Made by a program: the position numbers and the translations under genes | Shown: positions 22,061 through 64,000 of the stretch, piece after piece | Layout of the letters: the number at the start of each line of letters is the position of its first letter | How positions within the stretch are numbered: position 1 is the stretch's first letter | Assembly (NCBI GenBank): GCA_040285855.1 | Contig: JAUFOQ010000001.1 | Coordinates: 744,001-808,000, forward strand | DNA: 64,000 nt | Direction: 5' to 3' | Origin: Eukaryota sp. GEM-RC1 | Taxonomy: Eukaryota | Notes under the pieces: model-generated | Seen by the model: only the letters and a program-made list of their open reading frames with translations | Told to the model about the DNA's origin: nothing | The model's database searches: none

Positions 22061-22346
22061 GCGATATAAATAATTTTTGATCTTACAGAGTTCGAATCTT
22101 GGCATGCATTGAATATATTTTTCTTTTCATTCTTGTATGACTGACAGTATGCACAAACAGAATAAACTTTTGTACATATCGGTAAATCTGCTCGATATCA
22201 AGGAATTAAAACCAGAAATAACTTAAACAATATCGATAAAAATATACAAAAATAAGAAGATAAATGAAGAATAACCGCTAGTAGACTACGAAAGAAAGCA
22301 TTGACAATGATGTCAATGAAACAAAATAAGTGGAAGATCATGTAGA

Positions 22347-22883: not shown

Positions 22884-23102
22884 AACATTTCTTCACTTAA
22901 GCGATGCCACCTGCAAAATTTCCTTAAAAAAGCAGCAAAGACGAACAACCATCACTCAGTAAAAAAAACAAGTGAATTCGGTTTATAGACGACCGAAAAG
23001 CAAGGCTAGAGTTTGGGTATTTTTGAGCTTATCAACACATACTAACATCAGCATCGCAGTATTCAGCCTCTTTCCGAACCCCATCCAGCTCCACGCTATT
23101 CC

Positions 23103-23725
23103 ATGGAGTGGAGAAAGAAGGTCCAAGACATATCTGGAATTATTCGCACCTTTCAAAATCTGGAACTCACGGTCATAGAGAAGGACTTGGTAATCAGTTG
23201 CACAATAGCTTCTTACAATGGAGACTTTGTCGCTCGGTATGTCTCTACTGCAACAGGTGGAGGCCATAATGGCATGGTGAGCGAATACTACTTCGAGGCT
23301 GAAAACAAGAAGGAAGTCATGCAGAGAGCCTTCAAAAACTGTGATGCTTTTGAACACTTCTGGACCAAAACAAAAAGGGAGTTGGAAAATTTGGATAATT
23401 TAGGAACCACCCAATGCAACGGTCACAATCTACAAAGATGTTACGGATGTTCCACCTGATCTCCTACGTCTTAATAAGGTAAAGGGAGTTTACTACGTCG
23501 TTGTTTGCGGTAGCTTAGTTGGGCAAAATCACATCGACTGGCTGTTATTGCCAGCTACTGCAGAACGAACTGACACAACCACACTTCATGATGGCCTCAA
23601 ACAAAATGAAACTTATGATGTCGAAGACGAAAGACCATTTGCAGATTTTAGAACAATCTAAGACTCCGGTGATCTATCAGATGAATGGTGTAATGAGGAA
23701 TAGAAAGGCCTTTACAAGTGGGAAA
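23103..23725 (+). pseudogene. Frameshifted homologue of island ORF 40878-41570
   Basis: SCTIASYNGDFVA vs SCTVASYNGDYVA. A downstream frame gives KVKGVYYVVVCGSLVG..VEDERPF..KGLYKW, matching the C-terminus of the 41-kb protein. Confidence 0.65.
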
Positions 23726-25886: not shown

Positions 25887-26798
25887 TAGGGTTGTTAAAA
25901 TGAGCCGAGTCAAGTCGAGTCAAGCCTACAATTTGAAGCTTGACTTGACTCATGAGTCAACCAAGCCTGACTCGAGCTGACTCATCTTGATTACCTTTGA
26001 CTTGACTTGACTCATGAGTCAACCGAGCCTGACTCGAGCTGACTCATTTTGATTACCTTTGACTTGACTTGACTCATGAGTCAACCGAGCTTGACTCGAG
26101 CTGACTCATTTTGAATGCTCTTTTCTATTGTACTTTATAACATAACACAAATCTCTACTGTTTTCTACTGATCTGAATTTAATACACCTATTCCGTACCA
26201 CGAGTGTAAACACAATAAACACCTTGCAGTATTGCAGATAGTCTAGCCCTTTCCTTTGTTACAATTTGGTTTGCAGCAGAGAACAAACGTTCAATTGCTG
26301 CTGAACTTGGCCGAATGCTTAAGTAGTCGCGAGCTGAGCAAGCTGAGCTAGGATAATCTGATTGGTAGCGTTTCCACCAATCTAGGGGATCCACCGCAGC
26401 ATCGACTATGCCTGTTGATAAGTAAGCTGTCAGCTCATCCCACACATCAACATGCAATGAATTTATACAGAGAACTGCTACTAATTCCATGTACAGGTGA
26501 TTGTACTAGAATACGTTTAAATTGTACTAAATTACATTCATTAGAGTAAACTTGAGTAGAGCTGACTCACAGACAGAAACATAGGCTTGACTCGACTCAT
26601 GAGTCAAATGAGCCTGACTCGAGCTGACTCACGGACAAAGATATAGGCTTGACTCGACTCATGAGTCAAATGAGCCTGACTCGAGCTGACTCACGGACAA
26701 AGATACAGGCTTGACTCGACTAATGAGTCAAATGAGCCTGACTCGAGCTGACTGACTCAAAGCTCAGTGAGTCAGCTTGACTCAAAATTACAATCCTA
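25887..26798 (-). mobile_element. 912-bp non-autonomous hAT element with 62-bp subterminal arrays and 8-bp TSD
   Basis: Ends TAGGGTTG / CAATCCTA. TSD AATGAGGA at 25879-25886 and 26799-26806. Three 62-bp GACTCA-rich repeats at each end. Internal DPLDWWK..ARDYLSIRPSSAAIERLFS dimerisation domain (26188-26490). Confidence 0.92.
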
Positions 26799-26829: not shown

Positions 26830-27692
26830 CTCGTACTTCTTCTTTACCTTATTCTTCATGCCCTCCTGATAAACAACCTACTCTTGAACAGTGTATTTCT
26901 TCTTCAGAAGATTACAAAAATGCAGTCAATGTTGCCTTTGTTGAATTTATGGCTGCAGTTGGAATAGCTCCAAATCTTGTTGACAACCCATCTGCTCGTT
27001 TTTGCAACGATACTCTGCCTACGAAAAATCCGTCAGAGCCTCAGGTACTCCAGTGACTCTCCGAGACTGTGTCGAAGAACATCTGTTAGAGACAGCCGTT
27101 CTCCTCGTTCCCCGTACCTCAAGGTCTGATGCAGACTTGAGAAGATACCTGGAAGATTTGGCAGGTTTCCCTTTCATCGAAAATAGATATTCTGCGTTGA
27201 GTAAAATCAAGATAGATTCATCCATCAAAGAAGCCCGTTCTCGATTCTTTGATTATACTGGACGGTTTTTAGCTGTCCGAAAACGAGCTGCAGAGTACTA
27301 TATTCCTGAGGAAAGCCTCCTTCGTCGTTTTACGAGTGGAGTTATACCTTCAGGATTGGCGGAATCTTTGAAACTTTGTGTGAGTGATAAGATTATCACC
27401 GTCTTACCAGAAGCAATGGAGATAGTCCTAGATGAGTTAATTCATCTAGAAAGGTCTGACTCTTGGAAGTCACGATCCAGATTATCTTCATCAATTGAAC
27501 CAGTTTCCACCAGGCAACAAATGCTTACTTCCATTTGAATACACATTTAGTCAGACCAAGAGAGTACTGGAGTCCATTGGACCCACGAAAGTAACACAGA
27601 TCATCACGGACAATGCAGCCAATTGTTCTAGTGCTCGTCGGCACTTTTCTGTTGTGTCGAATTCATTTGACTCAAATAGGTTCTTTCGATGA
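26830..27692 (+). mobile_element. hAT (DUF659-like) transposase relic interrupted by a gag-like segment (27002-27538)
   Basis: FMAAVGIAPNLVDNP before and IGPTKVTQIITDNAANC after a 178-aa helical ORF resembling retrotransposon gag. The gag call is tentative. Confidence 0.5.
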
Positions 27693-33371: not shown

Positions 33372-33495
33372 AGGTCACTCAGTTTTTAAGCAAGTGACCC
33401 CGAGGTCAAAACCAGTCAGTTTTTAAGCAAGTGACCCCGAGGTCAAGGCCAGTCAGATTTTAAGCAAGTGACCCCGAGGTCAAGGCCAGTGAAAT
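33372..33495. repeat. 37-bp tandem array of the GTGACC/GGTCA site (about 3 units)
   Basis: agtttttaagcaagtgaccccgaggtcaa repeated at 33381, 33418 and 33455. Confidence 0.9.
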
Positions 33496-33607
33496 CCTAC
33501 ATCCCTAAAAATGGTATAGTAAAAAGAATCACGTTTAATACATGAAGATCATTTTTTATAGATAACATTTTTTCTATACCAGACTACACGACTTCTATAA
33601 ATGTGAG

Positions 33608-34085
33608 TAGGGACGAGAAATCACCTGAAAAGTGAGTAAGGAATACTACTCGAGTATCTGAGTAGATTTATTGAGTAGTATTCGAGTATTACTCATCAAC
33701 AAAAATTTGTTTTAGACTTTCAAGCAAATAAACACACCACTTTAATGTTCTATTTGTAGTAGAAAAAACTATTCATCATATAATGAATCTCAGCTTTACC
33801 TCTAAACTCAAAATCGCTTGAACACACTAAAATTGATTAGACATTCGAATATAATGAAGTAAAATGAACAACAACTAATAATAACACTTGGACGTTAAGT
33901 AAACCGCTTTTGTTTATCGTATAAGACTACTATCGATTCAAACGATAGTTTCGTCTAATCAAAGACGGTAATTTAAGTAGGACTCGAGTATATACTCACT
34001 CTTCAGGAAAGTGTGTATGAATACTACTCGAGTAGTACTCGGTATACTCTACTCAAATACTCTACTTGAGTAGATTATTTCCCTA
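33608..34085. mobile_element. MITE-like insertion with TACTCGAGTA subterminal palindromes
   Basis: TAGGG...CCCTA ends; absent from the homologous position near 45700. No clear TSD. Confidence 0.55.
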
Positions 34086-37000
34086 TCTCTATAAGCAACT
34101 ACGTAGATTTCATATTGATACTGCTTCTACCAGCAGTTCTAGTTGTAGCGCTATAATCTCTTCTGATCAATCTTTTACTGTTCTTTATGATTATAATTAC
34201 ATATATTGCACTCAACGCTCATGCTCTGCAGTTTCAAGTTTGTCGTTTTTTCAAAAGTGACACTGTGTCTTTGAGATATAAATCTGTCCATAAATGTATG
34301 ACATCATCATAGGAACGTGTGAGGTCTGAAATTGATTGCCCTGATACAACAGTATCTATGTTATAATTGAAAACATCTTTCTCCTGGATGAAAGCCATGT
34401 GCAGGATGGGACTGTGAAACATTTGAAGATAAGGTCTTTTCTGTTGTAGTCCACGTACTATTTTGTTCTCCAGCAGTCTTAGTTGTCTTATCATAAAAAA
34501 ATCTAGGTGGTTTTTTCCTGGCTGTAATATAATCACGTCGTGATTTGGCACCCATTTGACAAACGGATAGAGAGATAGGGTTTGTAAGTTCTTCAGTCAG
34601 ACAAGTCTCAAAGGGACAAATCTCAAAAGGTATTGGTCGGAGTAGACGTAAAATGACTCTAAGGTCAAGGTCACAAAGAATAATTGAGTTATATGTTCCC
34701 GACTAGAAATATGTCACAAACTTAAAAATAACCAAGCAATGCACACTATAAGCTTCATATTACTGATGAACCAAGTATAATTAAAACTCAAATGGTTACA
34801 TAGTTCATTTTAAGAAATGGTAAAACTTAAAATTTGTAGGTCATATCAATTCTTCAATTAACTTCTTTCCGAATCACAACTTTATGGTTTAAAACTATCT
34901 TAAATAAGAAGAAGTAGATAAATAACTGCACTGGTACGTATAATGACCACATTTCACAGTGTTGTTTAACCAAATCTTTGATACAAGGGACACTCAAAAC
35001 CAGTCTGTAGTAAGTTGTGGAAAGCTGATAGTTGAGGAACTTAAGATTTGGAGTTATATCTGATGTTCTCATATAGTCTATATGTATTTTACATTTAGTC
35101 CGTATAGTAAAGAGAGAAATTTATCAGAATCTTAAGTTCTTGATATATCACCTTTGCATATGTATATAGAACTCATGTATCAGTATGTAAATGGTGAAAA
35201 ACACATGTTAGAGTGAAGAAAAGATGATTTTGATCAGTGACCCTAAGGTCCAGGTCATAACTCATACAGCTGAAACTTTTCATGTATATCACAATCAGCG
35301 TCTTCAACAATGTTAACGTCATTAAAATGAGCAGAAGTTGGGAGATGTGTATGCAAATGGTTAAGCAAGAAATATATATAACAAAATATATGAACCCAGT
35401 TTCTATTGTGATTTGTACTGTATTTTGTAGTTCTTTTCAGTGCAAGAAGGAATTTCTTCCACTCAGAACTTCACAGAGATTTTTACTCATAGGCAAAAAT
35501 CATAGTCAAAATTCTCACAAAAAAGTTGTTATTTTTTGGGTACAGTGAGAATTTTCACGAGCCTGGTGTAAAACTCCTCAATTAATATCTCAGCTAAATA
35601 CTGAAGAACAGTTAAATGACATATTTCGATAATGTATTGGTAAAAATAATTTCTCGCAGACTGCGTATTAGACTTAGAACAAAATATAAAACAAGATTGT
35701 TACTTTTAGTGTCTCTTCAAATTTTTCTCAGAATGCCAGACGATGGTCTTTGGGCGCGAAGATTATGTTGGTGATGCACCAAATACAGAGTTTTGGAGGC
35801 ATTGGTCTTAGAAAGAAGAGAAAGTGTGTGTTTTCACGTAGTATTTTTCAGGGTTATGTTGGACACCTGAAGAGCGGCAATGTTGAGATCCAGCTTCATC
35901 AGGGAGGAATGAGTTGCGGCTGGTCCACTTTTATTAGCGCTCTGGACTGGGAGAAGAGTTCGTGACATAGATGGGACGATATCAAAATCCGGTGAGAGTG
36001 CTGTATTGATGCCTTTTGTTTTCATCATTCTCCATAACTGTTTTTTGTGTCTCCAGAACACGCTGAAAATCTTCGAACGCTTGGATATTAATAGATAGTT
36101 GTAGTAATTCCATTATATACGTTTGGCGCATTGAGAGAAAATAGTGATGTCAAGAAGGTACACAACTGGACGACAACTCACGGTCATCCAGAGCGACTCA
36201 GTACTGATTAACAGACAAATAGTCCTTCATCGTTTTGAACATCACAATGTTCTTATAATTTAAATTTGAATTTACACCTTCTTCACATATATTCTATTTG
36301 GTATTTTTCATTTTTTGAGCATTTGTTATTGTTATTGAATCATCAGACGTGTTACTGATGATCAACATTCACTGGAGTTCTTGATAAGAATGATATAGAA
36401 AAATAGAGATTAATGTTTGGATTACATTCATTAAAATTGACTTATCAATACGGAACTCAAAAGGTAGACAAGCATAAAATAAAAATACTTAATTATATAT
36501 CATTTTGTGAGTTTAGTCATTTTAAATTATCAAGTATTCAGACTGTGGGCATTTCAGTAATCAGTAGAATAATTGAAGATGATGAAACTGATGACACATT
36601 GACAATAATCAAATGTGCCTTCTACCGTTTTTTTGAAAAAATACAGTCTGATAAGAAGAATAACTAACATTCAATATCCACACAAACGAACTTGTAATGT
36701 GATAAATGTATTACAAGAATGAGATCTCATCAAAAGAGGTTGTACTAAAACCTAGAATTATGTAGATGTAGTTTATATTGCAATCAGTAACTTACCAAAA
36801 CAACGTTATATAAGAAGAAGTGGTGATCTCTCGATGCATAACACTTACAGCCAATGTCAAGATCAAGAACCATTTGGAAGGTATATCCCACAAGAAGTTT
36901 TTGCGTGGGGAAGTTTGTGTAATAAAATCAATTTACTCCCAAATCCACTGAATTTGCACCACAGTGTAGTACAAGTACGAAGCAGCATTGCAAGTTTTTT

Positions 37001-38709: not shown

Positions 38710-39435
38710 CTAAATCGAGTAGAAAAATCGCAATTTCGTTTTTTCGCATCCACACTCTTGCGATTTGATGTGAGGAGAGAAGTCAAGCAGTGGAGGCAGA
38801 GATTGCAGTGGTTCGACATCTGACTGTTCGAATTCAATACAGAGTTCAGTGTCAGAACATTCTCCAGGATTACAATAAGTGTTGATCCTGGAAAGAAAAG
38901 ATTGTGAAGGTGAATGATGAATCACCCAGGTACAAGTAATACCATCAGAATTGGCCTTCTGTCTTTGGCCTTTGGCCTTTGCAGCAGGTAGCGATTTGCG
39001 TGGCGGTGCAACAATGGGAGGAGATCTAGGACGAGGAAATAGATCTGTGACTTCGGGGCAAGCAGTTACCAATCCGGAGAATGCTCCAACAGGTGGGAGA
39101 ACATCTCTAAGAACATCGTGACCTGATGCAGGTACGTTAGTGTACCGATGTACAGAGCGGCCATCCATAGTCACTGCTGTGAATGAGAATGAGGTGAACT
39201 TGTCAATACCCTGCTGTGACAGTTCATCGATCAGCGAAGTGATCACCACGTTTTTGTCCTTTCGGACCTGCTTATAATCTTTCTTCGACCCATCGTGATA
39301 GGGAATCCCATCACTGGGTCTGAAAGTCTTTGTGGGGAGGTTTGAAGTTAACCTTTTCCACAAATGGACGAGAAGGAGTGAGTTCTTCGTCAGACATGAG
39401 AGAAAGAAAAGCTTGAATGAACACGTGTACCTCAT
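38710..39435 (-). CDS. Island orphan protein (5' end uncertain)
   Basis: 241-aa ORF; conserved homologue at 20.8-21.2 kb and a C-terminal (YSI*) homologue at ~61690. Confidence 0.6.
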   Translation of the reverse strand: MRYTCSFKLFFLSCLTKNSLLLVHLWKRLTSNLPTKTFRPSDGIPYHDGSKKDYKQVRKDKNVVITSLIDELSQQGIDKFTSFSFTAVTMDGRSVHRYTNVPASGHDVLRDVLPPVGAFSGLVTACPEVTDLFPRPRSPPIVAPPRKSLPAAKAKGQRQKANSDGITCTWVIHHSPSQSFLSRINTYCNPGECSDTELCIEFEQSDVEPLQSLPPLLDFSPHIKSQECGCEKTKLRFFYSI

Positions 39436-40064
39436 CTTTTCACTTTTCAGTGTATTGGACGCAGGCCATTGGTTCCCGTATGGCCACTAAACCTGTAGGA
39501 ATGATTGAACATGTACAGCATAAAACATTAAGGAATATTTGAACAAGTTGTCATGTCAAATTTAGAGACCTTTACCTTTGGGTTACAACAAAAACTCTCC
39601 AAAATCGTGTTTGTACACACTTAAACATACCAGGATGTCGTTTAGTACAACAAGGATTGATATACAAGCAGAGATTGTGACTCTGAAAACGCAATATAAC
39701 TCTAAATATGTCAAAGAGGGAGGAATTTGAACGCCTACTCAACATGTTGTGTGCCATGTCTATACTCTATAATGTATATTGCAAAATAAAATATTCTGCT
39801 TACAGATTTTTTTTCATATGTAATGTTGGTTTTCAAAAATTGAAACCCCAAACACAAAACAACCTTAACCATATACATGTAGTCACTTATTCCACCTATA
39901 GAACTGAACTTGGTCCAACATGAGTTTTGTTAAATATGTCTATTTCTCAACGCAAACTGTGACCATTATCAATGATACCCATAACAACTGAGATAAAATA
40001 TATACAAATGTATAGTACAAAACAAGAAATAAATACCAAACTAATGCAAAATAAGCAAGAAAAA

Positions 40065-40616
40065 CTAGCTAAGGAGGATAATCCGTGAAAACATATCAGC
40101 TAGAGCATTTGGAAGAAATGTGGGCTTACTCACATGAGGTAAATATCGATCGTGATCAGAGAGTTGTTGGATTATCCACTTTATAGCCAACATATAAGTC
40201 TTTTGATAACAACAAATAAATCCGTTGCGTTCAGAAGAAAAAGAATGATGAAGAAGAGATGATTGTTCAAAAGACTTGGAATATATGATACCATACTCTT
40301 GAGGATTGTCCAAAGCAACAAAACTAAGAAAAGGACTAAAGATTGGAGCATTTTGAACCATAGAATCACGTTGTGTCAAAGTTGACTTCGGTTGTTGACT
40401 GAGACGTTTTGACAGCCAGGAAGTCGCAGAAATATGTGTTTTATGCGTAGAGATAACGAAAGAATGAGGAAGACGTTCTTTTGCAGCATCGAAACGATGA
40501 GAGAATGTCGTGAATATGAAGCTATCACAACTACACCGAAAGTGCAGACAAGCGAACTGGAAGTGAAAGCTAGATACTGTGGATAAGTACGAACATCCAT
40601 GGAAAGGAAGAAACAA
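40065..40616 (-). CDS. Island orphan protein, possibly two divergent RNase H1-N/Cauli_VI-like domains
   Basis: Homologue at 22347-22883; two ~50-aa units ending in A..W[LI]. The domain call is speculative. Confidence 0.55.
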   Translation of the reverse strand: MFLPFHGCSYLSTVSSFHFQFACLHFRCSCDSFIFTTFSHRFDAAKERLPHSFVISTHKTHISATSWLSKRLSQQPKSTLTQRDSMVQNAPIFSPFLSFVALDNPQEYGIIYSKSFEQSSLLHHSFSSERNGFICCYQKTYMLAIKWIIQQLSDHDRYLPHVSKPTFLPNALADMFSRIILLS

Positions 40617-40877
40617 AACAAAAAACAGAAGAGGAGTTAACAGAGATTTTTTTTCCTTAACCCAATGACAAATAACTCAAACCAAGAGCCCAGTAAGAAA
40701 CAATGCAGAAAGTCTACCAGAACAACAGTAACTACACGGGATGTTGTTGTGCGCAGACCAGAAAGTACTCAGACATTAGAGTTTGCTTAATATATTCATT
40801 AATTAAAGTCAAAGGTTTTAAATTCCGCCACAGAACCGAAGAAATATGGCAGATTCAGTCCACTGTGGAAGAGTAAA

Positions 40878-41570
40878 GTGACCGAGCTGAACTCCATTGA
40901 GAAGGCAATGCAAGTGCTGCACCGCAGGGCAGCTGAACGAGAGTGGAGTGTCAGCTGTACCGTAGCATCCTACAACGGTGATTACGTTGCAAATGCAGTC
41001 TCCACTCCAGTTAATGTTGGGCCAGTGGTCATGCAGAATGCTGTTTTTACGGAACACTTCTTTGACACAGAAACTAAAGACCACTTACTTGACAGGGCAT
41101 TCGATGACCCTGATTCTCTAAAACGCTTATGGAAGGCAACTTCCGCTAAAGTGCAAAATCCATCTGGGATTGACCCTTCCATTGCAGAACCCTCCGCTGA
41201 CCACTTAGAAAATGCTTCCATTACAGAACCCTCCGCAGACCACTTAGTAAATGAAGCTGAAGCTAATCATTTAGCAGCGAAACTAAAGAAATTGCCCACT
41301 ACTAAGGTTGTCCTGATCAAAGTAGACGACGTTTGGCGTCCTGCTGTCAATGGTAGCTATGTCGGTTATCATATGGACGAGTATGTTATGCTCCCAAGTT
41401 CATATGAGCTAACAGTACAAGAGGCAGGAATTAAACCACCAACGCTAATTGAAGAACACAAGGTTGAGGACACAAAACCGTGGACCGACTTGCATGAAGT
41501 TGAACTTGCAGGAACACTTCATTATCAGTGGATGAACAACAAGTGGAGAGGTATATATAACTTTCAATAA
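40878..41570 (+). CDS. Island orphan protein (frame open back to ~40803; probable upstream exon)
   Basis: 230-aa ORF with internal duplicate SIxEPSADHL; homologue at 23103-23725. Confidence 0.65.
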   Translation: MTELNSIEKAMQVLHRRAAEREWSVSCTVASYNGDYVANAVSTPVNVGPVVMQNAVFTEHFFDTETKDHLLDRAFDDPDSLKRLWKATSAKVQNPSGIDPSIAEPSADHLENASITEPSADHLVNEAEANHLAAKLKKLPTTKVVLIKVDDVWRPAVNGSYVGYHMDEYVMLPSSYELTVQEAGIKPPTLIEEHKVEDTKPWTDLHEVELAGTLHYQWMNNKWRGIYNFQ

Positions 41571-41583
41571 ATTATTCAAATTT

Positions 41584-42996
41584 TTATTCTGAACCATCAA
41601 CAAAGAATTCATTATAATATTCGTCGATATGTGAGCTGACAAAAATATCTCTATGGGAACAGATTGCTCCTACTTCAGCCAGAAGCAGTTTAGACTGTGA
41701 AAATGCAGTAGGTATATCTGTTAAAATATAACCAACTTCAGGAATCTGAGCATTAAAATCAGGTAAGGCGCCAATTCCTTCTTCAAGATATTTTCCTAAG
41801 AAATCTTTCATTTCTTGGTTGCATTGAACGAAGGTTTTAAGCTGATTAAACTGGTGAACCGGAGACAACCTTGCCACAGTTTCATTGAGCATGTTTTTAC
41901 GCTTGTTGATAAAAAACGTGAACCACTTATGACTCATAGATGTACCCGACTTACGCATAGCTGTAGCGAAAGCAATAGGTGCCTGATAGGTACACATATG
42001 AGCTAGAAGCACATATTTTTGACCATGATGTACATGATCGATGGTGTTTGCGTAAACATGAACGCCCAAAGAGCTCACATCATGTTCACATGATTCGTAC
42101 ACCGATGACAAGTGCTCCACAGTGTCATATATTGATTTAAATAGATCAATTTTGGCAACTTGATCACTTGCCGTCAGTACTGATAAGAAAGTATTAGGAT
42201 GCACTACTGACGGAGAGTTAGTATCCTCAATTTCGCTCAATAGCGTTCGGGCCAAATTTTTAATGGGAGTAATACTCCACAGATCATTGACGTTAGGAAG
42301 TTTAAGTCATATGTCCACATGTCTGATATCAGAATAAGCCTGCATGTTGGTCTTTTTTTGCCCACTTGAAAAAACTTCTCCATGGCTAAAGGCTGATACG
42401 ATGATTACTCTTAAATGGTTTGCAGGAAGAAAATAGGGAGGGCATGTGAGAAAGCAACCAAGTGGAGAGCAAAGATTGTTGATGTAAGTGGCCTTCCATT
42501 CAGGGATCGACTTTCGGGTTATCTCCATGTAGATATTGTGTTGACCCTGATAGCCTCGGAATTTAGCATCGGCAGAAGTCTTGACATAAATGTTCGGTGT
42601 AGTTCGAATAAGAGATGACGGATTTTTGAAACCCATTAAAGCGCTCGCAAAGATGCGTTGAAGTGTTAGTGGCTCATTTTCGTCGGCATGACTGTTATAG
42701 ACAAAGATACATCGTGGACCGGCAGTGGTACGGGGACGCAAATGTTGGCATTCGGATATAATCGCTTGCCGATTATCCTTGAAAAAATCTTGTTTGACAA
42801 TTGTTTTTGGATTGGTATACAGGAGAGTCGCATATTCTCTAATCTTCTTCGCAAGTTCTTCGTCGATTTCAACTTCGTCATCGTCGTCTTGTTGGCGTAC
42901 TTGTTTTCTGACACGAGAAGAACGTGTCGAGCGACGGACAGCATTGGTACTAGACAGTTGGACCTCAGGTACATCAGAACTAGGCTGTTCGGACAT
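41584..42996 (-). CDS. Degenerate CRESS-Rep-like SF3 helicase-domain protein; a single in-frame TGA at 42307-42309 separates two co-linear ORFs
   Basis: IYVKTSADAKFRGYQGQHNIYMEI..YINNLCSP..RVIIVSA aligns by eye to circovirus Rep YWK..KWWDGYHGEEVVVIDD..LLRLCDRYP..ILITSN. ORFs 42307-42996 and 41584-42255 are in the same frame with only one stop between them. Confidence 0.6.
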
Positions 42997-43352
42997 GAGA
43001 AAGAGATGATAAAAGAAATTTCACTGAAAGGGTATAGAGAAAAAAAATCACGCTTAACCCTTAAGGATGATTTTTTAACGTTAACACTTTTTCTCTACCA
43101 GACTACACGCCACATGATCGTGATCATACATGTGCATCCAGATGACTGTTAGTCGTTGTTTGCTCTTACAACTCACCAGTTGTTTACTTATAATTTGATA
43201 GTTTTCCCTTGTTGAACCAGAAATGTTAGCGAATAAATTTCTTCCTTAACCATTTGCATACACATCTGCCCACTTCTGATCATTTTAATGATGTTGGCAT
43301 TGTTGAGGACGCTGATTCTGAGATACATGAAAAGTTTCAGCTGTATGTGTTA

Positions 43353-45155
43353 TGACCTTGACCTCAGGGTCACTCAACAAAATCATCGTTTCTTCACTCT
43401 AACATGTGTTTTTCACCATTTACATACTTATACATGAGTTCTATATACATATGCAAAAGGTGATATATCAAGAACTTAAGATTCTGATAAATTTCTCTCT
43501 TTACTATACAGACTAAATGTAAAATACATATAGACTATATGAGAACATCAGATATAACTCCAAATCTTAAGTTCCTGAACTATCAGCTTTCAACAACTTG
43601 CTACAGACTATTTTTGGGTGTTCCTTGTATCAAAGATTTGGTCTAACAACACTGTGAAAAGTGGTCATTTGAGCTGCAAATACGTACCAGTGCAGTTATT
43701 TATCTACTTCTTCTTATTTGGGTGGAATATAAACCACCAATTTGTGATTCGGAAAAAAGTTAATTGAAGAATTGATATGATCTACAAATTTGAAATTTTA
43801 CAATTTCTTAAAGTGAACTATGTAACCATTTGAGTTTTAATTATACTTGGTTCATCAGCAATAGGACGCTAATAGTGTGCATTGCTTGGTTATTTTTAAG
43901 TGTGTGACATATTTCTATTCAGGAACATATAACTCATATATTCTTTGTGACCTTGACCTCAGGGTCACTCAACAAAATCATCGTTTCTTCACTCTAACAT
44001 GTGTTTTTCACCATTTACATACTTATACATGAGTTCTATATACATATGCAAAAGGTGATATATCAAGAACTTAAGATTCTGATAAATTTCTCTCTTTACT
44101 ATACAGACTAAATGTAAAATACATATAGACTATATGAGAACATCAGATATAACTCCAAATCTTAAGTTCCTGAACTATCAGCTTTCAACAACTTGCTACA
44201 GACTATTTTTGGGTGTTCCTTGTATCAAAGATTTGGTCTAACAACACTGTGAAAAGTGGTCATTTGAGCTGCAAATACGTACCAGTGCAGTTATTTATCT
44301 ACTTCTTCTTATTTGGGTGGAATATAAACCACCAATTTGTGATTCGGAAAAAAGTTAATTGAAGAATTGATATGATCTACAAATTTGAAATTTTACAATT
44401 TCTTAAAGTGAACTATGTAACCATTTGAGTTTTAATTATACTTGGTTCATCAGCAATAGGACGCTAATAGTGTGCATTGCTTGGTTATTTTAAGTGTGTG
44501 ACATATTTCTATTCAGGAACATATAACTCATATATTCTTTGTGACCTTGACCTCAGGGTCACTCAACAAAATCATCGTTTCTTCACTCTAACATGTGTTT
44601 TTCACCATTTACATACTTATACATGAGTTCTATATACATATGCAAAAGGTGATATATCAAGAACTTAAGATTCTGATAAATTTCTCTCTTTACTATACAG
44701 ACTAAATGTAAAATACATATAGACTATATGAGAACATCAGATATCACTCCAAATCTTAAGTTCCTGAACTATCAGCTTTCAACAACTTACTACAGACTAT
44801 TTTTGGGTGTTCCTTGTATCAAAGATTTGGTCTAACAACACTGTGAAAAGTGGTCATTTGAGCTGCAAATACGTACCAGTGCAGTTATTTATCTACTTCT
44901 TCTTATTTGGGTGGAATATAAACCACAAATTTGTGATTCGGAAAAAGTTAATTGAAGAATTGATATGATCTACAAATTTGAAATTTTACAATTTCTTAAA
45001 GTGAACTATGTAACCATTTGAGTTTTAATTATACTTGGTTCATCAGCAATAGGACGCTAATAGTGTGCATTGCTTGGTTATTTTTAAGTGTGTGACATAT
45101 TTCTATTCAGGAACATATAACTCATTTATTCTTTGTGACCTTGACCTCAGGGTCA
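43353..45155. repeat. Three tandem ~595-bp near-identical non-coding units delimited by four TGACCTTGACCTCAGGGTCA sites
   Basis: Sites start at 43353, 43948, 44542 and 45136 (periods 595, 594, 594). Confidence 0.95.
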
Positions 45156-45812
45156 TTTGACTTCCACTTCTAACCAATACCCTTTGAGACTTGTCCCTTT
45201 GAGACTTGTCTGGCTGAAGAACTTACAAACCTTATCTCTCTATCCCATTGTTAAATGGGTGCCAAATCCCGACGTGGTTATCTTACAGCCGGTAAAAAAC
45301 CACGTAGACTGTTTATGATAAGACAACTAAGACTGCTGGAGAACAAAATAGTACGTGGACTACAACGTGAAAGACCTTATCTTCAAATGTTTCACAGTCC
45401 CATACTACACATGTCTTTCATTCAAGAGGAAGATGTTTTCAATTATAACTGTTGTACCAGGGCAATCGATTTCAGACCTCACACGTTCCTCTGATCATGC
45501 CATACATTTAGACACATTGTCACATTTGGAAAAAAAGACAAACTTGAAACTGCAGAGCATGAGCGTTGAGTGCAATATATGTAATTATAATCATAAAGAA
45601 CAGTAAAAGATTGATCAGAAGAGATTATATGGCTACAACAACTAAAACTGCTAGAAGTATCAGTATCATTATAAAATCTATGTACAAGGTAGTTGCTTTC
45701 ATACTGAAGTCATGTAGTCCGGTAAAGACAAAGTGTTATCGATAAAAAATCATCTTCAACTGTTAAGCGTGATTTATTTTCACTATACCATTTTTAGGGA
45801 GATATGATTTTA

Positions 45813-46030
45813 CTGGCCTTGACCTCCGGGTCACTTAACTGAGTGGCCTTGACCTCCGGGTCACTTACTTTAAAAATGAGTGACCTTGACCTCCGGGTCA
45901 CTTACTTTAAAAATGAGTGACCTTGACCTCCGGGTCACTTACTTTAAAAATGAGTGACCTTGACCTCCGGGTCACTTACTTCCAAAATGAGTGACCTTGA
46001 CCTCCGGGTCACTTACTTTAAAAATGAGTA
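45813..46030. repeat. 37-bp tandem array of imperfect palindromic (lox-like) sites, 5 full units plus 1 partial
   Basis: gtgaccttgacctccgggtcacttactttaaaaatga at 45843, 45880, 45917, 45954 and 45991; shortened unit at 45813. Confidence 0.95.
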
Positions 46031-46060
46031 AATCCCTAAAATTTATTAGATTTAAAACAT

Positions 46061-46893
46061 TCAACAATTAAACGCCTGTTCAATTCCAGTAAAATCACCC
46101 ATGTCACGCGCAGCTTCAGCTATACCTTCTCCAATATAGGTAAGAGTTGTGGTACCACTCAAATGACTTAACATTTTCTTCAACGTATCCAAACGTGCTG
46201 GTTTTTCATGAGCCGGGCCACCAAATTGCCAGTAATGGTATGCAAATGTTTTCCTCATAGTATGAGTCGAAAATTTCTTCAGTCTTAACGATCTACCAAC
46301 TTCTTTGAAAACTCTAATAACAGTTTTAACACACAGAGGCTGTCGGCAGCCTAACTTCTTTTTCTCGAGTAGAATAAATAATCATTCGGAGCGACATTTG
46401 CTGCATCACAATACTCTTGCACTACAACTTTAAGCCAAAGGGAGACTTTACGGGTGACTGTAGCATTTACCCAATGTTTTGATTTTCGTTTCTTCTTTTC
46501 TTTTATAATTAAGAATGTTGCAGTTATACTGTTCTCTTTAAAATCTTTTAATCGTAACGTCAACAAATCAGAAATTCTGAGACCAAGAGCACATCCAATT
46601 TTCCAAATAGCACCATTTCGCTTTCCATTTATTCCAGGTGTCAACGCAAGAAATTCATTGTATATAACGTCAATCATATTGGGATCTTTGATTGGAGACA
46701 TTCCCTTGTGCAACTGTTCGATGCTAATATCCAAAGTACCATGATAGTTTTCATTTTGGGCTAATGAATAAGCTTGATCATCATCACAATCAGAGAAAAA
46801 AACACATTCGTCAGATGATGTTTCATCGGCATCTGATTCAATTTCAGACATGGGAATGGGATGAGGATAGGCAAAAGGGTCGTTAGAGGACAT
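46061..46893 (-). CDS. Tyrosine recombinase (phage-integrase family), one -1 frameshift in an A5 run at ~46360
   Basis: GLRISDLLTL (R), IKEKK (K), STHTMRKTFAYH (HxxR), MLSH..TTLTYIG (H, Y). Adding one A joins YLFYSR to KKKLGCRQPL..FSTHTMRK. Confidence 0.9.
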
Positions 46894-46917: not shown

Positions 46918-46961
46918 AATCTGAATGTGAACTTTGTTATAACAAAGTTCACATTCAGATT
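46918..46961. promoter_or_regulatory. Perfect 44-bp palindrome between divergent YR and orphan genes
   Basis: aatctgaatgtgaactttgtta|taacaaagttcacattcagatt is seen directly; its function is inferred. Confidence 0.7.
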
Positions 46962-46992
46962 CCTTCCAACTCCAACTTTTTCACAACCCTAT

Positions 46993-48159
46993 ATGAAACA
47001 TGTTAGAAAAGAAGCTATGATTAGGAAGAAGGCTCATGATAGGCACATTGTCACCACAATTAACACTTTGAGGAAGAGTGTTGTCCTCATGAAAGAAAAC
47101 TGTCCTTATGAACATGACGTTCATAGTTGCATTGGACTAGCTGATGGGTCTCTACGTCAGATAATAGGTGTGCCATTTAACCCTTGCCGGGCAACAGTGA
47201 GTGTGTATTCTTGGTATGATCCCCAATCATTGAAGTTTGCTGAAAAAAAATACCATTTCCCATCATGGATTTTGGAAAATGATATGGATGATGGTGAGCC
47301 AATCATTTTAAAAATATTGCACGATGATCTGTTCGGCCTAAGTACCCGAACGTGGCTTTTCTACTCTTTGCTGGTCGAATCTGCAGCCAACTTGACCCAT
47401 TACATTGCCTGTAATGTTCGTTGTGTAACTGCTGTGGCTGTCGATCTCCCTGCCGCACGCCAATTCCCCCCAGCCGTGAAAAAGAAACTGGACGATCACC
47501 AAAAGCCAAGCAGGGCATCACTGTATGAACTAAACCTAGCCCGCTCAAAGAAATTGGCTCTGAAGCGAAGCTGTTTCAGCCGGAACAGCAGTGTGAGCGA
47601 ATGTGATGTCAAGTTCTCTTACAGCACTGAGCATCCATGGAGTGACACTGAAGAGTGTGGATGCGATTTCCAATGGACGAACCTGGATGGGGAACTCGGT
47701 TGGATCAAAACTCAATGGAATGTGCTCACAACACAGGCTCCGAACTTTGATTCTTGGTCAAAGCAGTTGTTGTATTTGTTCCGTTTAACTTATACAATGG
47801 AATGGCTGTGGGTATTATACCTTACAGCAGATGGTGAATTGCAGTTCTTCCCAAATTTTGAGGAACTGAATGCGTTTTTGGGCACAACTCATTGCCAAGA
47901 CAATTTGGTTTCGGCTCGATTTGTGCTCAACCAACAACTTTATGAACGTTGGAAAGACCCTTCTGCTGACTCTGCTCCTGCAGTTCCTCAAACGAATTCT
48001 GCAGATATCATTCGTACTGGCTATGAAGAACCTCTTGAAGAAACAATATTGATTGAAGAGCCAGAATCCCAACAGGAGTTTAAAACTCAGACTGTAACAT
48101 TTACAGGAAGAAGTTTATTCAAAAAGAAGAAAAAGACGATAAATAAATTCAGTGTTTAA
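46993..48159 (+). CDS. Island orphan protein (~388 aa), divergent from YR
   Basis: Long uninterrupted ORF, first ATG at 46993; decayed homologue at 33060-33371. Confidence 0.75.
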   Translation: MKHVRKEAMIRKKAHDRHIVTTINTLRKSVVLMKENCPYEHDVHSCIGLADGSLRQIIGVPFNPCRATVSVYSWYDPQSLKFAEKKYHFPSWILENDMDDGEPIILKILHDDLFGLSTRTWLFYSLLVESAANLTHYIACNVRCVTAVAVDLPAARQFPPAVKKKLDDHQKPSRASLYELNLARSKKLALKRSCFSRNSSVSECDVKFSYSTEHPWSDTEECGCDFQWTNLDGELGWIKTQWNVLTTQAPNFDSWSKQLLYLFRLTYTMEWLWVLYLTADGELQFFPNFEELNAFLGTTHCQDNLVSARFVLNQQLYERWKDPSADSAPAVPQTNSADIIRTGYEEPLEETILIEEPESQQEFKTQTVTFTGRSLFKKKKKTINKFSV

Positions 48160-48222: not shown

Positions 48223-50231
48223 TTATTCTTTGTCTTCAGGCTTTATGAATTCGATTACTGTGGCCATAAACGACCCCTTAAAAGTTTTTTCATCTACTGC
48301 CACATACATTAAAGAAGGATCCCAACAGCTGCCTTTGATATTGAATGTTTCAACACATTCTTTGTGAGCTAAAATATTGGCAAAACACGTGGAAAGAGAA
48401 TTTAAGTCAGAGTCCGGATTCTCTCTACCTACAACAGAATACTGAGGGATTTCTTTAGATCTGTCAAGCACAGCTAAAATTAGAGGCAAATCTTGTTTGT
48501 CGAAACTTACAGCTCGATGAGAATACCAGGACTGAAGAAAGTGAGCGAGATAAAGTAAATTGAAAGGAAGAGTAAAATCTAATTCAGAAGGAATGCATTC
48601 AAAAATAAAAAGACGAAAGAATTGAGTTAGTTGTGCCAATTTTTCATTTAAGATTCTACGGGCAATCTTTGATATCTCTGTGATACTGGCAATAGTATCA
48701 TCGAGATAAGTTTTAAATTGATCCTCATCAGGAACTTTGAACAATTTTGAAACCAGAGAGAATGTGGAAAGCTTTTGTCTTTTATATTGATCCTCATAAG
48801 GAACTTTGAACATCTTTGAATCCAGAATGGATGTGGACAGATTTTCCCTTTTCCATTCATTTGAGCATGTAATAGAACATGTACAACATCAGAAGACGAA
48901 ATGGGAAATCTACCAGAACGTTTAAGAAAGAATTCTGAATGTGTGAAGTTTGGCAAAGAGAAAATTTTTACAGACTCAGGCCAGAAGTTGTCAAAGTTGG
49001 ATCGTTGATCTTCGGTCATATGAATAAAAAGAGTGTCATAGCTGAGTAGAGTGACACCAATTTTAGCCAACATGGTAGCCACAAGGGTTCTTCCAGTATC
49101 TTTATGGAGAGCCAATTTAGCAGCAAATAGAGGAGTATTTTCGAGAGCAGTTTTTAAGGAGCAAAAGGACAAGAAGTTGAATACGTAGTGTTGACTTGAG
49201 TTTGTTTTACTACAAATAGCAAATTGGGGGTCTGGAGTACGGCCTTGATCGCGTTCATCAATAATCCACTGCTGATGTTCTCTATCAGTAGTGTCAAATA
49301 ATTTTGTAATTCTGAAAAATAATAATCCCAATCAACCTGAGGGCAACGATTTAAGATTTGATGCTCCCTAGTTCCAAGAGCAGCAGCCCAAACTTCAACA
49401 GGAGTCTTCCTTTCAGAAAGGTACTTACATAAAAGCAGCGAAGTAGGTGTTCCAAATGACATTGGCAGTTCATAATAAGTTTGAACAAATCCAGCTTTCA
49501 AAAAACATCGATGATGGGTAAGCAACCGCACACGGATACCGTTTTCTTGTTCAATATAGACTTTTGGTAATCTCGGACGTTTTGCGGGAGGCGGCTGAAG
49601 TGGACAATCAGAATCAGATGGAGCATTAAGTGCGGCATCAAAGTTGTCTTTAGCTGGATCATAAAATTGATACAGCTCAGAAACATGCTGTGGAATATAA
49701 TAAAACTCTTCCAGGTCAGACTCTGCATCAGTAGTATCCTCTGAAGTAAGGGACAGCTTACGAGTCAGCTCATTAATTTGATTCTCAATTGAAAATTGAT
49801 CATCATCAACAATGATGATTTGTTTTTCTTCCTTCACATTGATTAGATTCACAGGACGATTGGAATCAAGAACGATCATCTTGACTTGAGGATGCGGTTT
49901 CAGCAGCTGGCGCAACCTCAATCCTCCTCCACAGTTGACAAAAATACTGTCTGCAGCCACGGACCTCCACATTCTGGGTTGCATTGAATTCTGAAATGAC
50001 GCAGAATATCTTCAGTTGAGGCAACAGAGACAACAACAAATTGAATACCGTCTGAGTGAAGTCTTTTCTGAAGTAAGACACTATGTTACGATAACATACT
50101 TCGAGAATGGAAGATGCACATAATGAATCAACACCAGGTGCAACCAAAATCAAGACAGAAATTGCATTCACATGGTGTGTGTTCTTGATCTGTTCATAGA
50201 TGAAGGGAATACGTTCGCTCTGGATCAACAT
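48223..50231 (-). CDS. CDC45: Cdc45 replication-initiation/CMG helicase subunit, full length; one 32-nt intron and three apparent single-base frameshifts
   Basis: VLILVAPGVDSLCASSIL, VNCGG, VLDSNRPVNLINV, IIIVDD, VWAAALGT, SLKTALENT..LAKIG, SSSDVV, F..PFNLLYL..LPLILA..SVVG: Cdc45 motifs in the correct order from N- to C-terminus. Confidence 0.9.
50068..50099 (-). other. 32-nt spliceosomal intron in CDC45
   Basis: GTATGTTATCGTAACATAGTGTCTTACTTCAG. Removal gives ILE-KRLHSDGIQFVVVSV, matching the Cdc45 consensus. Confidence 0.8.
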
Positions 50232-50243
50232 GGTGAAAGAATA

Positions 50244-50253
50244 TTCCGCCAAA
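50244..50253 (-). promoter_or_regulatory. E2F-like binding motif TTTGGCGGAA in the 72-bp CDC45/E2F bidirectional intergenic region
   Basis: Matches WTTSSCSS, 12 nt upstream of the CDC45 ATG. CCGCC motifs also precede other genes here, so specificity is uncertain. Confidence 0.45.
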
Positions 50254-50303
50254 AAGATTGACTATTATCACAAGCCTGAAACTTGCACGTTTTCAATTTC
50301 CTG

Positions 50304-50975
50304 ATGCACTCTTCATCTCCACCACGCAAACAGAGTCGATTGTGTCCATCTCCTGTTGACGCATCTCTGGTAGATCCTACACGGGCGGATTACTCTTCTT
50401 CTGACCTTCCCTCCACTTCAAACACTCCTTCTTTGAGTGCTTCTACGTGTAAACCTAAAGCTGTCCCCAAACGTAAAGCTACTTTCACAGCTACTTCCAC
50501 AGCTACCACTTCCACTACTACTACTTCTACATCAAAAACTCCATCACTAGAAACTTTATCTTTACAAATTTTAGAGTATGCTCAGGTCAAAGGTTCTTTC
50601 ACCTTGAAAAACCTAGAACAAGACCTACAAGTGGGTTATAGAAGGTTGTACGATGTCCTCAACATCTTATTAACAACTCCTTTATTCCATTCCACAAAAG
50701 AAAATGGAACAACAGTCTACACTTGGTGTGATGGATGCACTACAAATGACCCATTAACCATAGCTACACTGTCCTCTGACCTGTTCCTAAGTGGCGTACA
50801 GTTGCACGAATCCATTATTAGATGCCATAAACTGGAACAAGTTTTGAGAAGTGATATGAAGAAAATCAATATTGATGAACTTTGTGCTGACTTTGTGAGG
50901 AAGAGTGAAAGTGGTTGTCCTATGCCTGAGCATATAGATGCAGTGTATAGAGACATTGCTAAGGGTTTGTGGTGA
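50304..50975 (+). CDS. E2F/DP-family winged-helix transcription factor-like protein
   Basis: SLETLSLQIL..FTLKNLEQDLQVGYRRLYDVLNIL..VYTW: the E2F/DP RRxYDxxN signature with flanking SLxxL and YxW. Confidence 0.85.
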   Translation: MHSSSPPRKQSRLCPSPVDASLVDPTRADYSSSDLPSTSNTPSLSASTCKPKAVPKRKATFTATSTATTSTTTTSTSKTPSLETLSLQILEYAQVKGSFTLKNLEQDLQVGYRRLYDVLNILLTTPLFHSTKENGTTVYTWCDGCTTNDPLTIATLSSDLFLSGVQLHESIIRCHKLEQVLRSDMKKINIDELCADFVRKSESGCPMPEHIDAVYRDIAKGLW

Positions 50976-61660: not shown

Positions 61661-61906
61661 CCTATTCTATACCATCCTATTCTAAATCGAGTAGACTTTC
61701 CAAGTCTTCGTAACAACATTGTTACGAAACACATCATTCAACAGTGATGGTGACACGAACATGAATCAGTTAGGTCTCTTGATTCATATAGGTTGTGATT
61801 TTGATCGAATTGTTCCTAGAAGTGACTTGCAAAGATCGAATATTCTTATACGAAATTGAAAGGCTTTTGTCGCGTCCAAAATGATCTCTACGACATTCCC
61901 GTACCA

Positions 61907-63640
61907 TTATCCTGAGCACATAACTTCATTCATAACTTTTTTGCTCTCTGATAAAACAAGCGATCCGCAATGGGCAAAATTATAATGAAGATTAATTGAA
62001 TTGTAATTATCGACAAAATACCTATAAGACTTATTGTGAGGTACAGTCATCCACTTTTTAATTGTTCCATAATTTCCCTCCCAATATTTACCACGGTTCT
62101 CCAGACCACGATCGAGATTCAGATTCTCGAAGTTCTGGTCCCAGAAATCGGTCAACGTCATAAACTACAGGCCTAGTAGCTCTTGGACTACGACGGACAA
62201 CAGATGGACGGGGTATGAACTGCATTGAGCAAAATTTTCGTACAAGCTTACAGCGTTATAATTGTTGATAAAATAACGTTTACCGCAAAGACCATGTTCG
62301 ACATGATACTAATTTTTTATAGTTCCCCAATTTTTTTCCCAATATTTCCCAAATTCAAAATCTCCATCTTTAACAACAAAAGAACTAATTGACGGTTTTT
62401 GAATGGTTTTGCCGTAAGTTCCATTCATAAATAATTTTAAAAGTAACTGTTGGGGATTCTTCTGTTCTTTAAGTTACATTCGATTATCGTATATGAATTT
62501 CATAACTTCATTGATTTTTGAATTATATTCAATCCAATAAATTCATCTTTTAAATTCATATGTAATTCCATGATATTGTTGAAATTGTTGAAGATCAATA
62601 TAACTAATGATCATAGTATCGTTAACTCCGGTTTCAACGTTATTAACAAATTTCCTATTTCCTTGAGAATCTGTGACAGGGATTAAAGGAAAATCTAAAG
62701 AATTTTGAACAGACAAAATTCTGATTTCGATATAGAATTGATAATCAGAATTAATGACCGACTCGTAAAAATGAGGACTAGAAGGGTTTTCACTCATTAT
62801 AAGAGCAGCTCCGACCGGAAAACCCTTCAGTCTTTTCATCGCAGTGGGATATAAACTTTTTACGTCAAAGTCTACCATAAAATCTTCTATAAAAATTCCT
62901 GTTGAAGATTCCACAACGTTGGATCCTATCTCATTCAAAGAGTATCTAACGGGTTTGTAAAATTGTTTTTGATACTGATTGGTCATAACACGACCTCCAA
63001 TAACTGATTGTTGCACAAACTGACGTAACGATCCAGTTACACTCCGTCATATACTCCTTGAGAAATCATAACATCGTGAGACAATGACGAAATCGTACGA
63101 TAATTAAATAGATCTATTTCAGGAAATAACTGTCCCAAATCTTTACGAAAACGAAATAATCCTTGACCTAATAATAAATGTCTTGAATTGTGTAAAATAC
63201 AGAATAATTTTGATGCAAAAGTTAAATTCAGAGACATTACGTTCGACGTTAAATGTTTCTTGTATTGATTTTGATTCCACGCAAGATTCAATAAATTCTT
63301 CACGTTCTTTATAAGTATTAAAGAACTTTTCAGCCACATTGTCTACCGTATCAATGTAAGGAACATCAAGATCAGTAACAGTAGGAAAATCATTGTAAAA
63401 AGGATAAGGATAAGCTTCTTTTTTTACCTTTAATTTGAACATTTTAGGAAATTTAGCCAATGCTTCAGGAATAATTTTCAAAGAATCTCTAAAATGTATT
63501 TTGATTGTTCTTGAATCTCCAAATTGTTGACCACATTTAAACGATCCCTCGGCAGAATACAATGCTCCATCTTTTTGCAACACCTTTAAATCAAATAAAT
63601 TTCCGTGCAAAAAGAAAAATCATATTTTAGATTGTGCAAA
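61907..63640 (-). mobile_element. Polinton/Maverick-type protein-primed DNA polymerase B pseudogene
   Basis: FRDSLKII..LAKF..KEAYPY (exonuclease region), SVIGGRV, VDFDVKSLYPTAM (motif A), KLFMNGTYGKTIQ (motif B, ~62400-62440), HCGSLVLSESKKVMNEV. Confidence 0.88.
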
Positions 63641-64000
63641 TACACCAAAACTTCATAGAATGTTTCTTGTGGAATTTGTTTCTCTTTTCGGTTTAAAATA
63701 CTCGAAATCAAGTACTGAAGAGATATAAGAATAAATGATAAATACAATCTTCTTGATAAAATACTCTCATTTTGTTTGAATCATTGACCATTGAATTAGA
63801 CACGGGGTCAAATTTTAGACCTAATTGAGGTATGGTTGCAGGGAAGAACACGATGATCGCACTTAAGCTGACAACCAGAAGGACTGGACAGATTGTTGAT
63901 TCAGTTAAACATGTATAACGGGATCATGGGCACGTGTATCTCGGCATAGATTTTGTGCTGACCGTGATACCAACCAGAACGAGTGATAGTTGGATCAGCC

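What the first reader, a model, noticed from the sequence alone, without database searches (positions are those of the whole stretch)
45813..46030. Tandem array of lox/FRT-like sites 30 bp downstream of the recombinase gene
Seen: each 37-bp unit is AAAATGAGTGACC-ttgacctccg-GGTCACTTACTTT plus 1 nt, i.e. 13-bp inverted arms (11/13 match) around an asymmetric 10-bp core that holds a third TGACC. The period of 37 is conserved in the diverged copy at 33372-33495. Known: Cre/loxP and Flp/FRT use 13-bp arms with an asymmetric 8-bp spacer. Inference: these are YR binding/recombination sites or, alternatively, origin iterons.
Basis: partly seen in the sequence, partly recalled or inferred. Interest (0 to 1): 0.85.

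Follow-up and report, generated by a model that had tools for sequence, protein, structure and literature searches.

The report
Transposon-end repeats beside a recombinase gene
The 37-base repeat array is real, but it sits between short ends of the kind found on hAT DNA transposons, so it is likely a row of transposase binding sites in a small decayed transposon lying next to a broken bacterial-type recombinase gene, rather than a row of lox-like recombination sites.

Summary
The array is real: six cores at 45813-46013, ending 30 bp from the stop of a tyrosine recombinase (YR) gene with one frameshift. The host is a eukaryote. The same ~22-bp core occurs singly at the junctions of a 595-bp triplication and in an inverted paralogous copy. 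The lox-like reading is weak. The proposed outer dyad is intact in 9 of 15 copies, an inner TGAC-N6-GTCA in 14 of 15. The array is tightly bracketed by TAGGGA...TCCCTA (45795-46038). A hAT derivative 19 kb away (perfect 8-bp target duplication, hAT domain) has similar ends and subterminal arrays of the same TGAC/TGAC-N6-GTCA build. The array's own target duplication fails (4 of 8), and the single sites lie outside the bracket. The YR belongs with short Firmicutes-type YRs (up to 37% identity). Many of these carry a different, dif-like site, as inverted pairs around their gene (12 of 12 two-sided loci); none of 127 has such an array. Best reading (0.55): hAT-type subterminal repeats. Rival (0.22): direct-orientation YR sites. 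Earlier scan notes describe the bacterial switch family on other DNA, not this array.

The parts
45795..46038 (+). 244-bp hAT-like element: TAGGGA left end, array, TCCCTA right end; 8-bp flanks match at only 4 of 8
45813..46030 (+). 37-bp tandem array, six cores TGACC-T-TGAC-N6-GTCA plus a partial unit (the finding)
46061..46893 (-). Short bacterial-type tyrosine recombinase gene, split by one frameshift in an A-run near 46355-46365; all six catalytic positions present
46918..46961 (.). Perfect 44-bp palindrome 25 bp upstream of the YR start, between the YR and a divergent orphan ORF; longest perfect palindrome in the window
46993..48159 (+). 388-aa orphan ORF, no relative among 1.84 billion representatives, no usable fold (pLDDT 32)
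43352..45157 (+). 595/594/594-bp tandem triplication with a single core at each of four junctions (43352, 43947, 44541, 45135); single unit in the paralog
43010..43200 (+). Inverted copy (85% over 43027-43107) of about 45600-45812; the match ends at the base before the first core and includes the left-end region
33372..35377 (-). Inverted paralogous copy (82-91%): three cores plus a half core, two single cores (34652, 35236), left end TAGGGATGTA at 33507; YR and right end lost by a deletion that starts inside a core
25887..26798 (+). Reference hAT derivative: TAGGG/TAGGA ends, perfect 8-bp target duplication, hAT dimerisation domain, 62-bp subterminal arrays with TGAC-N6-GTCA

Best explanation
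The array lies inside a 244-bp stretch with hAT-type ends (TAGGGA...TCCCTA) and is likely the subterminal repeat block of a small, old, non-autonomous hAT-family DNA transposon, whose TGAC-rich palindromes would be bound by a transposase made elsewhere; its place beside the recombinase gene is likely incidental. Shown: the ends, the shared motif build with a verified hAT derivative, the host's hAT content. Inferred: transposase binding; expansion of one palindrome-bearing unit to 37-bp copies by slippage or unequal exchange; the two single cores as scattered motifs of the same family; the 595-bp triplication as ordinary recombination between those 20-bp direct repeats. The recombinase is a separate, bacterial-type gene inside a decayed region shared with protein-primed-polymerase elements.
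For: TAGGGA starts 18 bp before the first core and TCCCTA ends 8 bp after the last partial unit; expectation per interval from the window's own TAGGG/CCCTA densities is 5e-5. The paralog's left end TAGGGATGTA matches the reverse complement of the right end at 9 of 10. A hAT derivative at 25887-26798 has TAGGG/TAGGA ends, an 8 of 8 target duplication and a hAT dimerisation domain, E 3e-14. Of 22 [TC]GAC-N6-GTC[AG] hits in the window, 6 are in that hAT derivative, 14 in this family, 2 elsewhere; both families put an extra TGAC just left of the palindrome, and in the hAT derivative both blocks point the same way. Inner dyad intact in 14 of 15 copies, outer dyad in 9 of 15. Subterminal repeats of 5-12 bp, 5 to over 50 copies, bound by the BED finger, are usual in hAT elements (PMC3355664, passages). 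Orthologous cores differ between the two copies like their surroundings (21-22 of 23 against 91-94%).
Against: The 8-bp flanks match at only 4 of 8. The end repeat is short (6 bp in the main copy) and I noticed it after seeing the other hAT ends. No transposase remnant lies in or near the element. The two copies share flanks, so they are not independent insertions. The inverted copy at 43010-43200 includes both flank and left end, so TAGGG could be internal to a larger repeat. The single cores at 43352 and 45135 lie outside the bracket with no clear ends of their own. The motifs of the two families share build, not full sequence. The YR evidence listed under the first rival is not removed.
Confidence: 0.55

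Rival explanations
1. The cores are crossover sites of the adjacent YR, read as 11-13-bp arms around a 6-bp spacer (GACCTC). All point one way, so the enzyme would excise, re-insert and multiply the segments between them, as in multimer resolution or cassette shuffling.
For: 30 bp from the YR stop. In the 6-bp register positions -7, -6, -4, -3 are symmetric in 10, 10, 9, 8 of 10 distinct copies, the zone that is symmetric in the bacterial relatives' sites. The 595-bp triplication joins inside the core. The paralog's deletion starts 1 bp inside the 10-bp core. Both single sites of the paralog share one spacer change (chance 0.06-0.10). The paralog's blocks are a circular permutation of the main order. 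The YR keeps 19 of 21 family-conserved columns.
Against: The relatives' site is AATGYAACAwww-N6/7-wwwTGTTRCATT (36 of 88 non-redundant loci, 0 of 156 control flanks); the best array register scores -4.7 against a cut-off of 14. Relatives with two sites hold them inverted around the gene (12 of 12); the window's YR has no such pair (score 10, shuffle median 9). None of 127 relative loci has a comparable array or an exact TGACC-N10-GGTCA. Position -11, symmetric in 98% of bacterial sites, is symmetric in 3 of 10 here. The two single cores are the longest direct repeat in the segment, so host recombination explains the triplication as well. Only 1 of 10 block ends lies at a core. The same 20-mer occurs in 59 metagenome loci with no YR detected. 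Caveat: the YR is a long branch, so its site may have drifted.
Confidence: 0.22
2. The cores are binding sites (origin iterons, partition or control sites) for another protein of a decayed plasmid-like or Polinton-like element, while the YR's own site is the 44-bp palindrome upstream of its gene.
For: The region shares ORFs, in the same order, with two segments that carry protein-primed DNA polymerase B remnants (35-49% identity). The 44-bp palindrome lies 25 bp upstream of the YR, where relatives keep a site, and has their AAC-N14-GTT spacing.
Against: The palindrome scores -23 on the relatives' matrix and has no partner in the window. No initiator, capsid, packaging ATPase or protease was found among the ORFs scanned. 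It does not explain the TAGGG/CCCTA bracket.
Confidence: 0.13
3. A neutral minisatellite grown from one palindromic seed, with no binding protein.
For: Unit variants grade along the array and differ between the two copies; no excess conservation of cores between copies.
Against: Two single cores with unrelated flanks are identical over 20 bp (chance about 1e-5 in 1.3 kb); the end bracket and the shared build with hAT repeats are unexplained.
Confidence: 0.1

Closest known systems
Non-autonomous hAT derivatives / MITEs with subterminal repeats (Ac/Ds type; TCUP, PMC3355664, passages seen)
   Same: Short TAGGG-type ends, a block of repeated short palindromic motifs just inside the end, no coding capacity; a verified example with the same motif build lies in this window. 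The paralog's TAGGGATG equals the start of the Ac end (recalled, not from a call).
   Different: No 8-bp target duplication (4 of 8); end repeat only 6-10 bp; single motif copies lie outside the ends; no independent insertions seen.
loxP / FRT / dif crossover sites (dif: PMC5357621, passages; general 11-13 + 6-8 + 11-13 rule: PMC3212892, passage)
   Same: Dyad around an asymmetric centre, next to a YR gene; a 6-bp-spacer register is geometrically possible.
   Different: Only 5-7 bp of dyad are conserved; the most conserved dyad lies inside the supposed spacer; six head-to-tail copies; no match to the site of the YR's relatives.
Short (about 186 aa) Firmicutes-type YRs flanked by inverted dif-like sites; FimB/FimE-like and RecV-like invertases (PMC5903667, passages)
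   Same: The window's YR lacks the N-terminal core-binding domain and is closest to these proteins; relatives hit the NCBIfam 'tyrosine-type DNA invertase' models below cut-off.
   Different: At most 37% identity, a 60-aa acidic N-terminal extension, eukaryotic host, no inverted site pair around the gene. Kinship with RecV itself was not tested.
Cryptons (PMC3212892, PMC9977147, passages) and YR-bearing Polinton-like viruses (PMC12220804, passages)
   Same: Eukaryotic DNA elements with a YR; circular intermediates are proposed; polymerase B remnants lie in related segments.
   Different: Cryptons have 4-6-bp terminal direct repeats, not internal 37-bp arrays; this YR is bacterial-type and no second copy was found; no capsid or packaging genes detected.

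Membership tests
hAT non-autonomous element | Short terminal inverted repeats of the TAGGG/CAGGG type | tested here: met
   TAGGGA at 45795, TCCCTA at 46038; paralog left end 9 of 10 to the right end
hAT non-autonomous element | 8-bp target site duplication | tested here: not met
   4 of 8, against 8 of 8 for the hAT derivative at 25887; so not filed as a clean hAT insertion
hAT non-autonomous element | Subterminal repeated short motifs | tested here: met
   six TGAC-N6-GTCA units, same build as in the hAT derivative
hAT non-autonomous element | Dispersed copies with different flanks, and empty sites | not testable with these tools
   no whole genome held; the two window copies share flanks
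hAT non-autonomous element | Binding by a hAT transposase | not testable with these tools
   bench test; only transposase fragments at 26191-26505 and 27450-27689
lox/FRT/dif-type YR site | 11-13-bp inverted arms conserved among sites | tested here: not met
   11 of 13 only in the four identical array units; outer positions not symmetric in single sites and paralog
lox/FRT/dif-type YR site | 6-8-bp asymmetric spacer shared by partner sites | tested here: inconclusive
   a 6-bp register GACCTC is shared, GACCTT in both paralog singles; but it overlaps the better-conserved inner dyad
lox/FRT/dif-type YR site | Cognate YR with intact catalytic residues nearby | tested here: inconclusive
   R-K-H-R-H-Y present, one frameshift; whether it is an assembly error could not be checked
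Self-inverting short-YR switch (bacterial relatives) | Family site AATGYAACA...TGTTRCATT | tested here: not met
   array best -4.7, 44-bp palindrome -23.2 at spacer 6, cut-off 14
Self-inverting short-YR switch (bacterial relatives) | Inverted site pair flanking the gene | tested here: not met
Crypton | Multi-copy YR element with 4-6-bp terminal direct repeats | tested here: inconclusive
   protein searches found no second eukaryotic copy; element ends undefined
Polinton-like virus | Capsid, packaging ATPase, protease, long terminal inverted repeats | tested here: not met
   none among the ORFs scanned; only polymerase B remnants in related segments; the window may not hold a whole element

The most novel reading that the evidence does not exclude
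A eukaryotic mobile element has taken over a Firmicutes-type invertase and turned it into a cassette shuffler: the same-direction TGACC cores act as integron-like sites that excise, re-insert and amplify 0.6-0.7-kb segments, with the six-copy array as a landing pad, possibly carried between hAT ends.
Probability: 0.12. Interest if true: 0.8.

Novelty: new member of a known kind. Interest (0 to 1): 0.3.

Why it matters
If the best reading holds, the array is ordinary transposon-end DNA and a warning that palindromic arrays beside a recombinase gene need not be its sites. The side result is more useful: a short bacterial-type invertase gene in a eukaryotic genome, with a 44-bp palindrome in its upstream region. 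If the rival holds, it would be a compact recombinase and site pair from a eukaryote and a rare example of cassette-like amplification outside bacteria.

Tried and rejected
No whole genome held and no sequencing run was listed, so copy number, the frameshift and the triplication were not checked on reads; four substitutions between unit 3 and units 1-2 argue against a pure assembly artefact. Motif scans of viral contigs gave 0 for the 20-mer, a two-unit pattern and the palindrome pattern. YR and polymerase searches of viral contigs found no relative. The YR N-part had no plasmid match and 3 phage matches; the array gave two chance-level plasmid hits. Rfam: 0 hits. Integron attC-like single-strand folding: weak (z -0.7 to -3.0), not pursued. 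Coding cassettes between the sites: no Pfam family beyond one E 0.047 hit in 30 frames; the 595- and 678-bp segments are not alike; a MutL-like look by eye was not confirmed. Orphan ORFs: no relatives, fold unusable. I first thought the 44-bp palindrome matched the relatives' site; the matrix did not support it. Further TAGGG-like ends at 46991 (11 of 12 to the hAT end) and 34576 (10 of 12) are at about chance level by my rough estimate and lack target duplications. The tree is the quick one, with the YR on a long unsupported branch; no donor is claimed. Sigma-70 scans are not meaningful for this host. Six-frame Pfam scanning of 20.5-25.9 and 53.3-64 kb was not obtained; only ORFs of 62-70 aa or more were scanned there. 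Literature searches listed no paper on this motif; no supplements were read.

Full report
Observation. The array exists as described: period 37, 5.1 copies, 96% matches, six cores from 45813 to 46013, first spacing 30, 30 bp from the stop of a minus-strand YR gene. It is far beyond chance (14 hits against 1.48; 14 against 0). The copy at 33372-33490 is part of an inverted paralogous region, 82-91% identical.

Setting. The window is eukaryotic: a CDC45 gene with a 32-nt GT...AG intron read from the sequence, E2F, importin alpha, kinase-LRR, hAT and Mutator fragments. The importin alpha scores only about 125 bits against animal, plant and fungal chains, which points to a divergent single-celled eukaryote; this is inference. 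ORFs left of the array have 35-49% identical counterparts beside two protein-primed DNA polymerase B remnants, so the region belongs to a decayed family of large elements. No capsid or packaging gene was detected among the ORFs scanned.

The motif is wider than the array. The core also stands singly at 43352, 43947, 44541 and 45135, the junctions of a 595-bp triplication, and at 34652 and 35236 around the single unit of the paralog; all point the same way. The junction copies are hybrids of the two original sites. The paralog lost the YR by a deletion that starts inside a core, and its blocks are a circular permutation of the main order. They are weaker than they look: the two single cores are the longest direct repeat in the segment and only 1 of 10 block ends lies at a core, and orthologous cores decay like their surroundings. 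One point stays in favour: both paralog singles share a spacer change (chance 0.06-0.10).

The recombinase. Both pieces hit Phage_integrase and phrog_216. The best hits among 43 candidates are three 186-188-aa proteins at 36-37%; a search for longer relatives of the C-part found none among 88 candidates. Read through with X, it keeps 19 of 21 columns conserved in 87 bacterial and phage relatives (one of 88 dropped by a length filter), all catalytic ones included, at up to 37% identity on a long branch. Eleven of 127 have any tandem array, three within 400 bp, each of 2.5-2.7 copies; none has an exact TGACC-N10-GGTCA. Their top dyad is AACA-N12-TGTT (27 of 88 non-redundant loci, 2 in controls). 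A matrix built from those flanks finds 48 of 176 flanks (36 of 88 loci; trained on the same flanks) and 0 of 156 control flanks. All 12 loci with a site on both sides have perfectly inverted spacers, the layout of a self-inverting switch. The array scores at best -4.7 on this matrix and the window's YR has no flanking inverted pair. Since 52 of 88 relatives also lack this site and the YR is distant, this lowers but does not exclude the YR-site reading. A perfect 44-bp palindrome 25 bp upstream of the YR has the relatives' spacing but scores -23.

The hAT reading. The same build, with an extra TGAC on its left, forms the 62-bp subterminal arrays of an element at 25887-26798 that has TAGGG/TAGGA ends, a perfect 8-bp target duplication and a hAT dimerisation domain. 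The paralog's left end matches the right end at 9 of 10. Subterminal repeats bound by the transposase's BED finger are standard in hAT elements (PMC3355664, passages). Against this: the target duplication fails (4 of 8), no transposase lies inside, the two copies are not independent insertions, the single cores lie outside the bracket, and the left end is included in an inverted copy at 43010-43200. I therefore say it likely works like a hAT subterminal block and do not file it as a clean hAT insertion.

The motif elsewhere. The 20-mer has 0 hits in viral contigs and 59 in metagenome contigs; 26 of 59 form one interspersed repeat family and none of the 59 loci shows a YR by tblastn or HMM. The motif is thus not diagnostic of YRs. 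That these contigs are of animal origin is my recollection of this repeat type, not a call result.

Mechanism. Shown: repeats, ends, shared build, hybrid junctions, YR family. Inferred: a hAT-type end with one palindrome unit expanded to 37-bp copies; transposase supplied in trans; later segmental duplication, deletion and triplication by host recombination at 20-bp repeats; the YR as a neighbour. Odds: hAT-type repeats 0.55, YR crossover sites 0.22, binding sites of another element protein 0.13, neutral minisatellite 0.10.

Known systems. YR sites are 11-13-bp arms around 6-8 bp, and Cryptons end in 4-6-bp direct repeats (PMC3212892, passages); dif is 11-6-11 (PMC5357621, passages); active Cryptons cause rearrangements at short targets (PMC9977147, passages); YR-bearing Polinton-like viruses lack target duplications (PMC12220804, passages); invertible segments that enclose their recombinase are known in bacteria (PMC5903667, passages). 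Eight searches listed no paper on this motif; supplements and repeat libraries were not seen and may hold it. Two earlier scan notes describe the bacterial switch family on other genomes; none covers this array.

Verdict. Real feature, most likely ordinary transposon-end DNA; interest 0.3, kept above the floor by the unresolved single sites and by the bacterial-type YR with its palindrome.

Noticed in passing
window 46918-46961: Perfect 44-bp palindrome between the divergent YR and orphan ORF; candidate YR binding or control site, no partner in the window.
   Followed up: partly
L109-L120, L153, L164, L166, L174 (300 bp either side of the YR gene): Short Firmicutes YRs flanked by inverted dif-like sites with matching 6-7-bp spacers (12 of 12 two-sided loci): likely self-inverting switches.
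   Followed up: partly
window 25887-26798: hAT derivative with perfect 8-bp target duplication, dimerisation-domain fragment and two 62-bp subterminal arrays.
   Followed up: yes
window 33608-34085: 478-bp TAGGG...CCCTA MITE with TACTCGAGTA palindromes, present only in the paralog.
   Followed up: partly
window 20771-23724, 38713-43020, 61829-63969: Three segments share unknown ORFs in conserved order (35-49% identity); two carry protein-primed DNA polymerase B remnants next to duplicated importin-alpha DNA.
   Followed up: partly
window 48223-50975: CDC45 in four frames with a 32-nt intron and a 69-bp internal duplication, followed by an E2F-domain ORF; possibly captured or decaying host genes.
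   Followed up: partly
window 41584-42255: ORF with a weak Atlas lead (0.87) to Eyes-absent/HAD phosphatases.
   Followed up: partly
window 40068-40676 and 22350-22892: Paralogous ORFs ending in PNALADMF, which by eye recalls an RNase H C-terminus; no Pfam or PDB match.
   Followed up: partly
window 43456-43590: 135-bp element with inverted ends inside each 595-bp unit (self-complementary at 67%).
   Followed up: no
window 46987-46991 and 34576: Further hAT-like end motifs (11 of 12 and 10 of 12 to the verified end); the first would enclose the YR gene with the 45795 end, but there is no target duplication.
   Followed up: partly
L002-L060: The array's 20-mer core recurs in an interspersed repeat family (26 of 59 loci) with no YR nearby.
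   Followed up: partly
window 9237-9277: 18-bp-arm hairpin with a 5-nt loop, unexplained.
   Followed up: no
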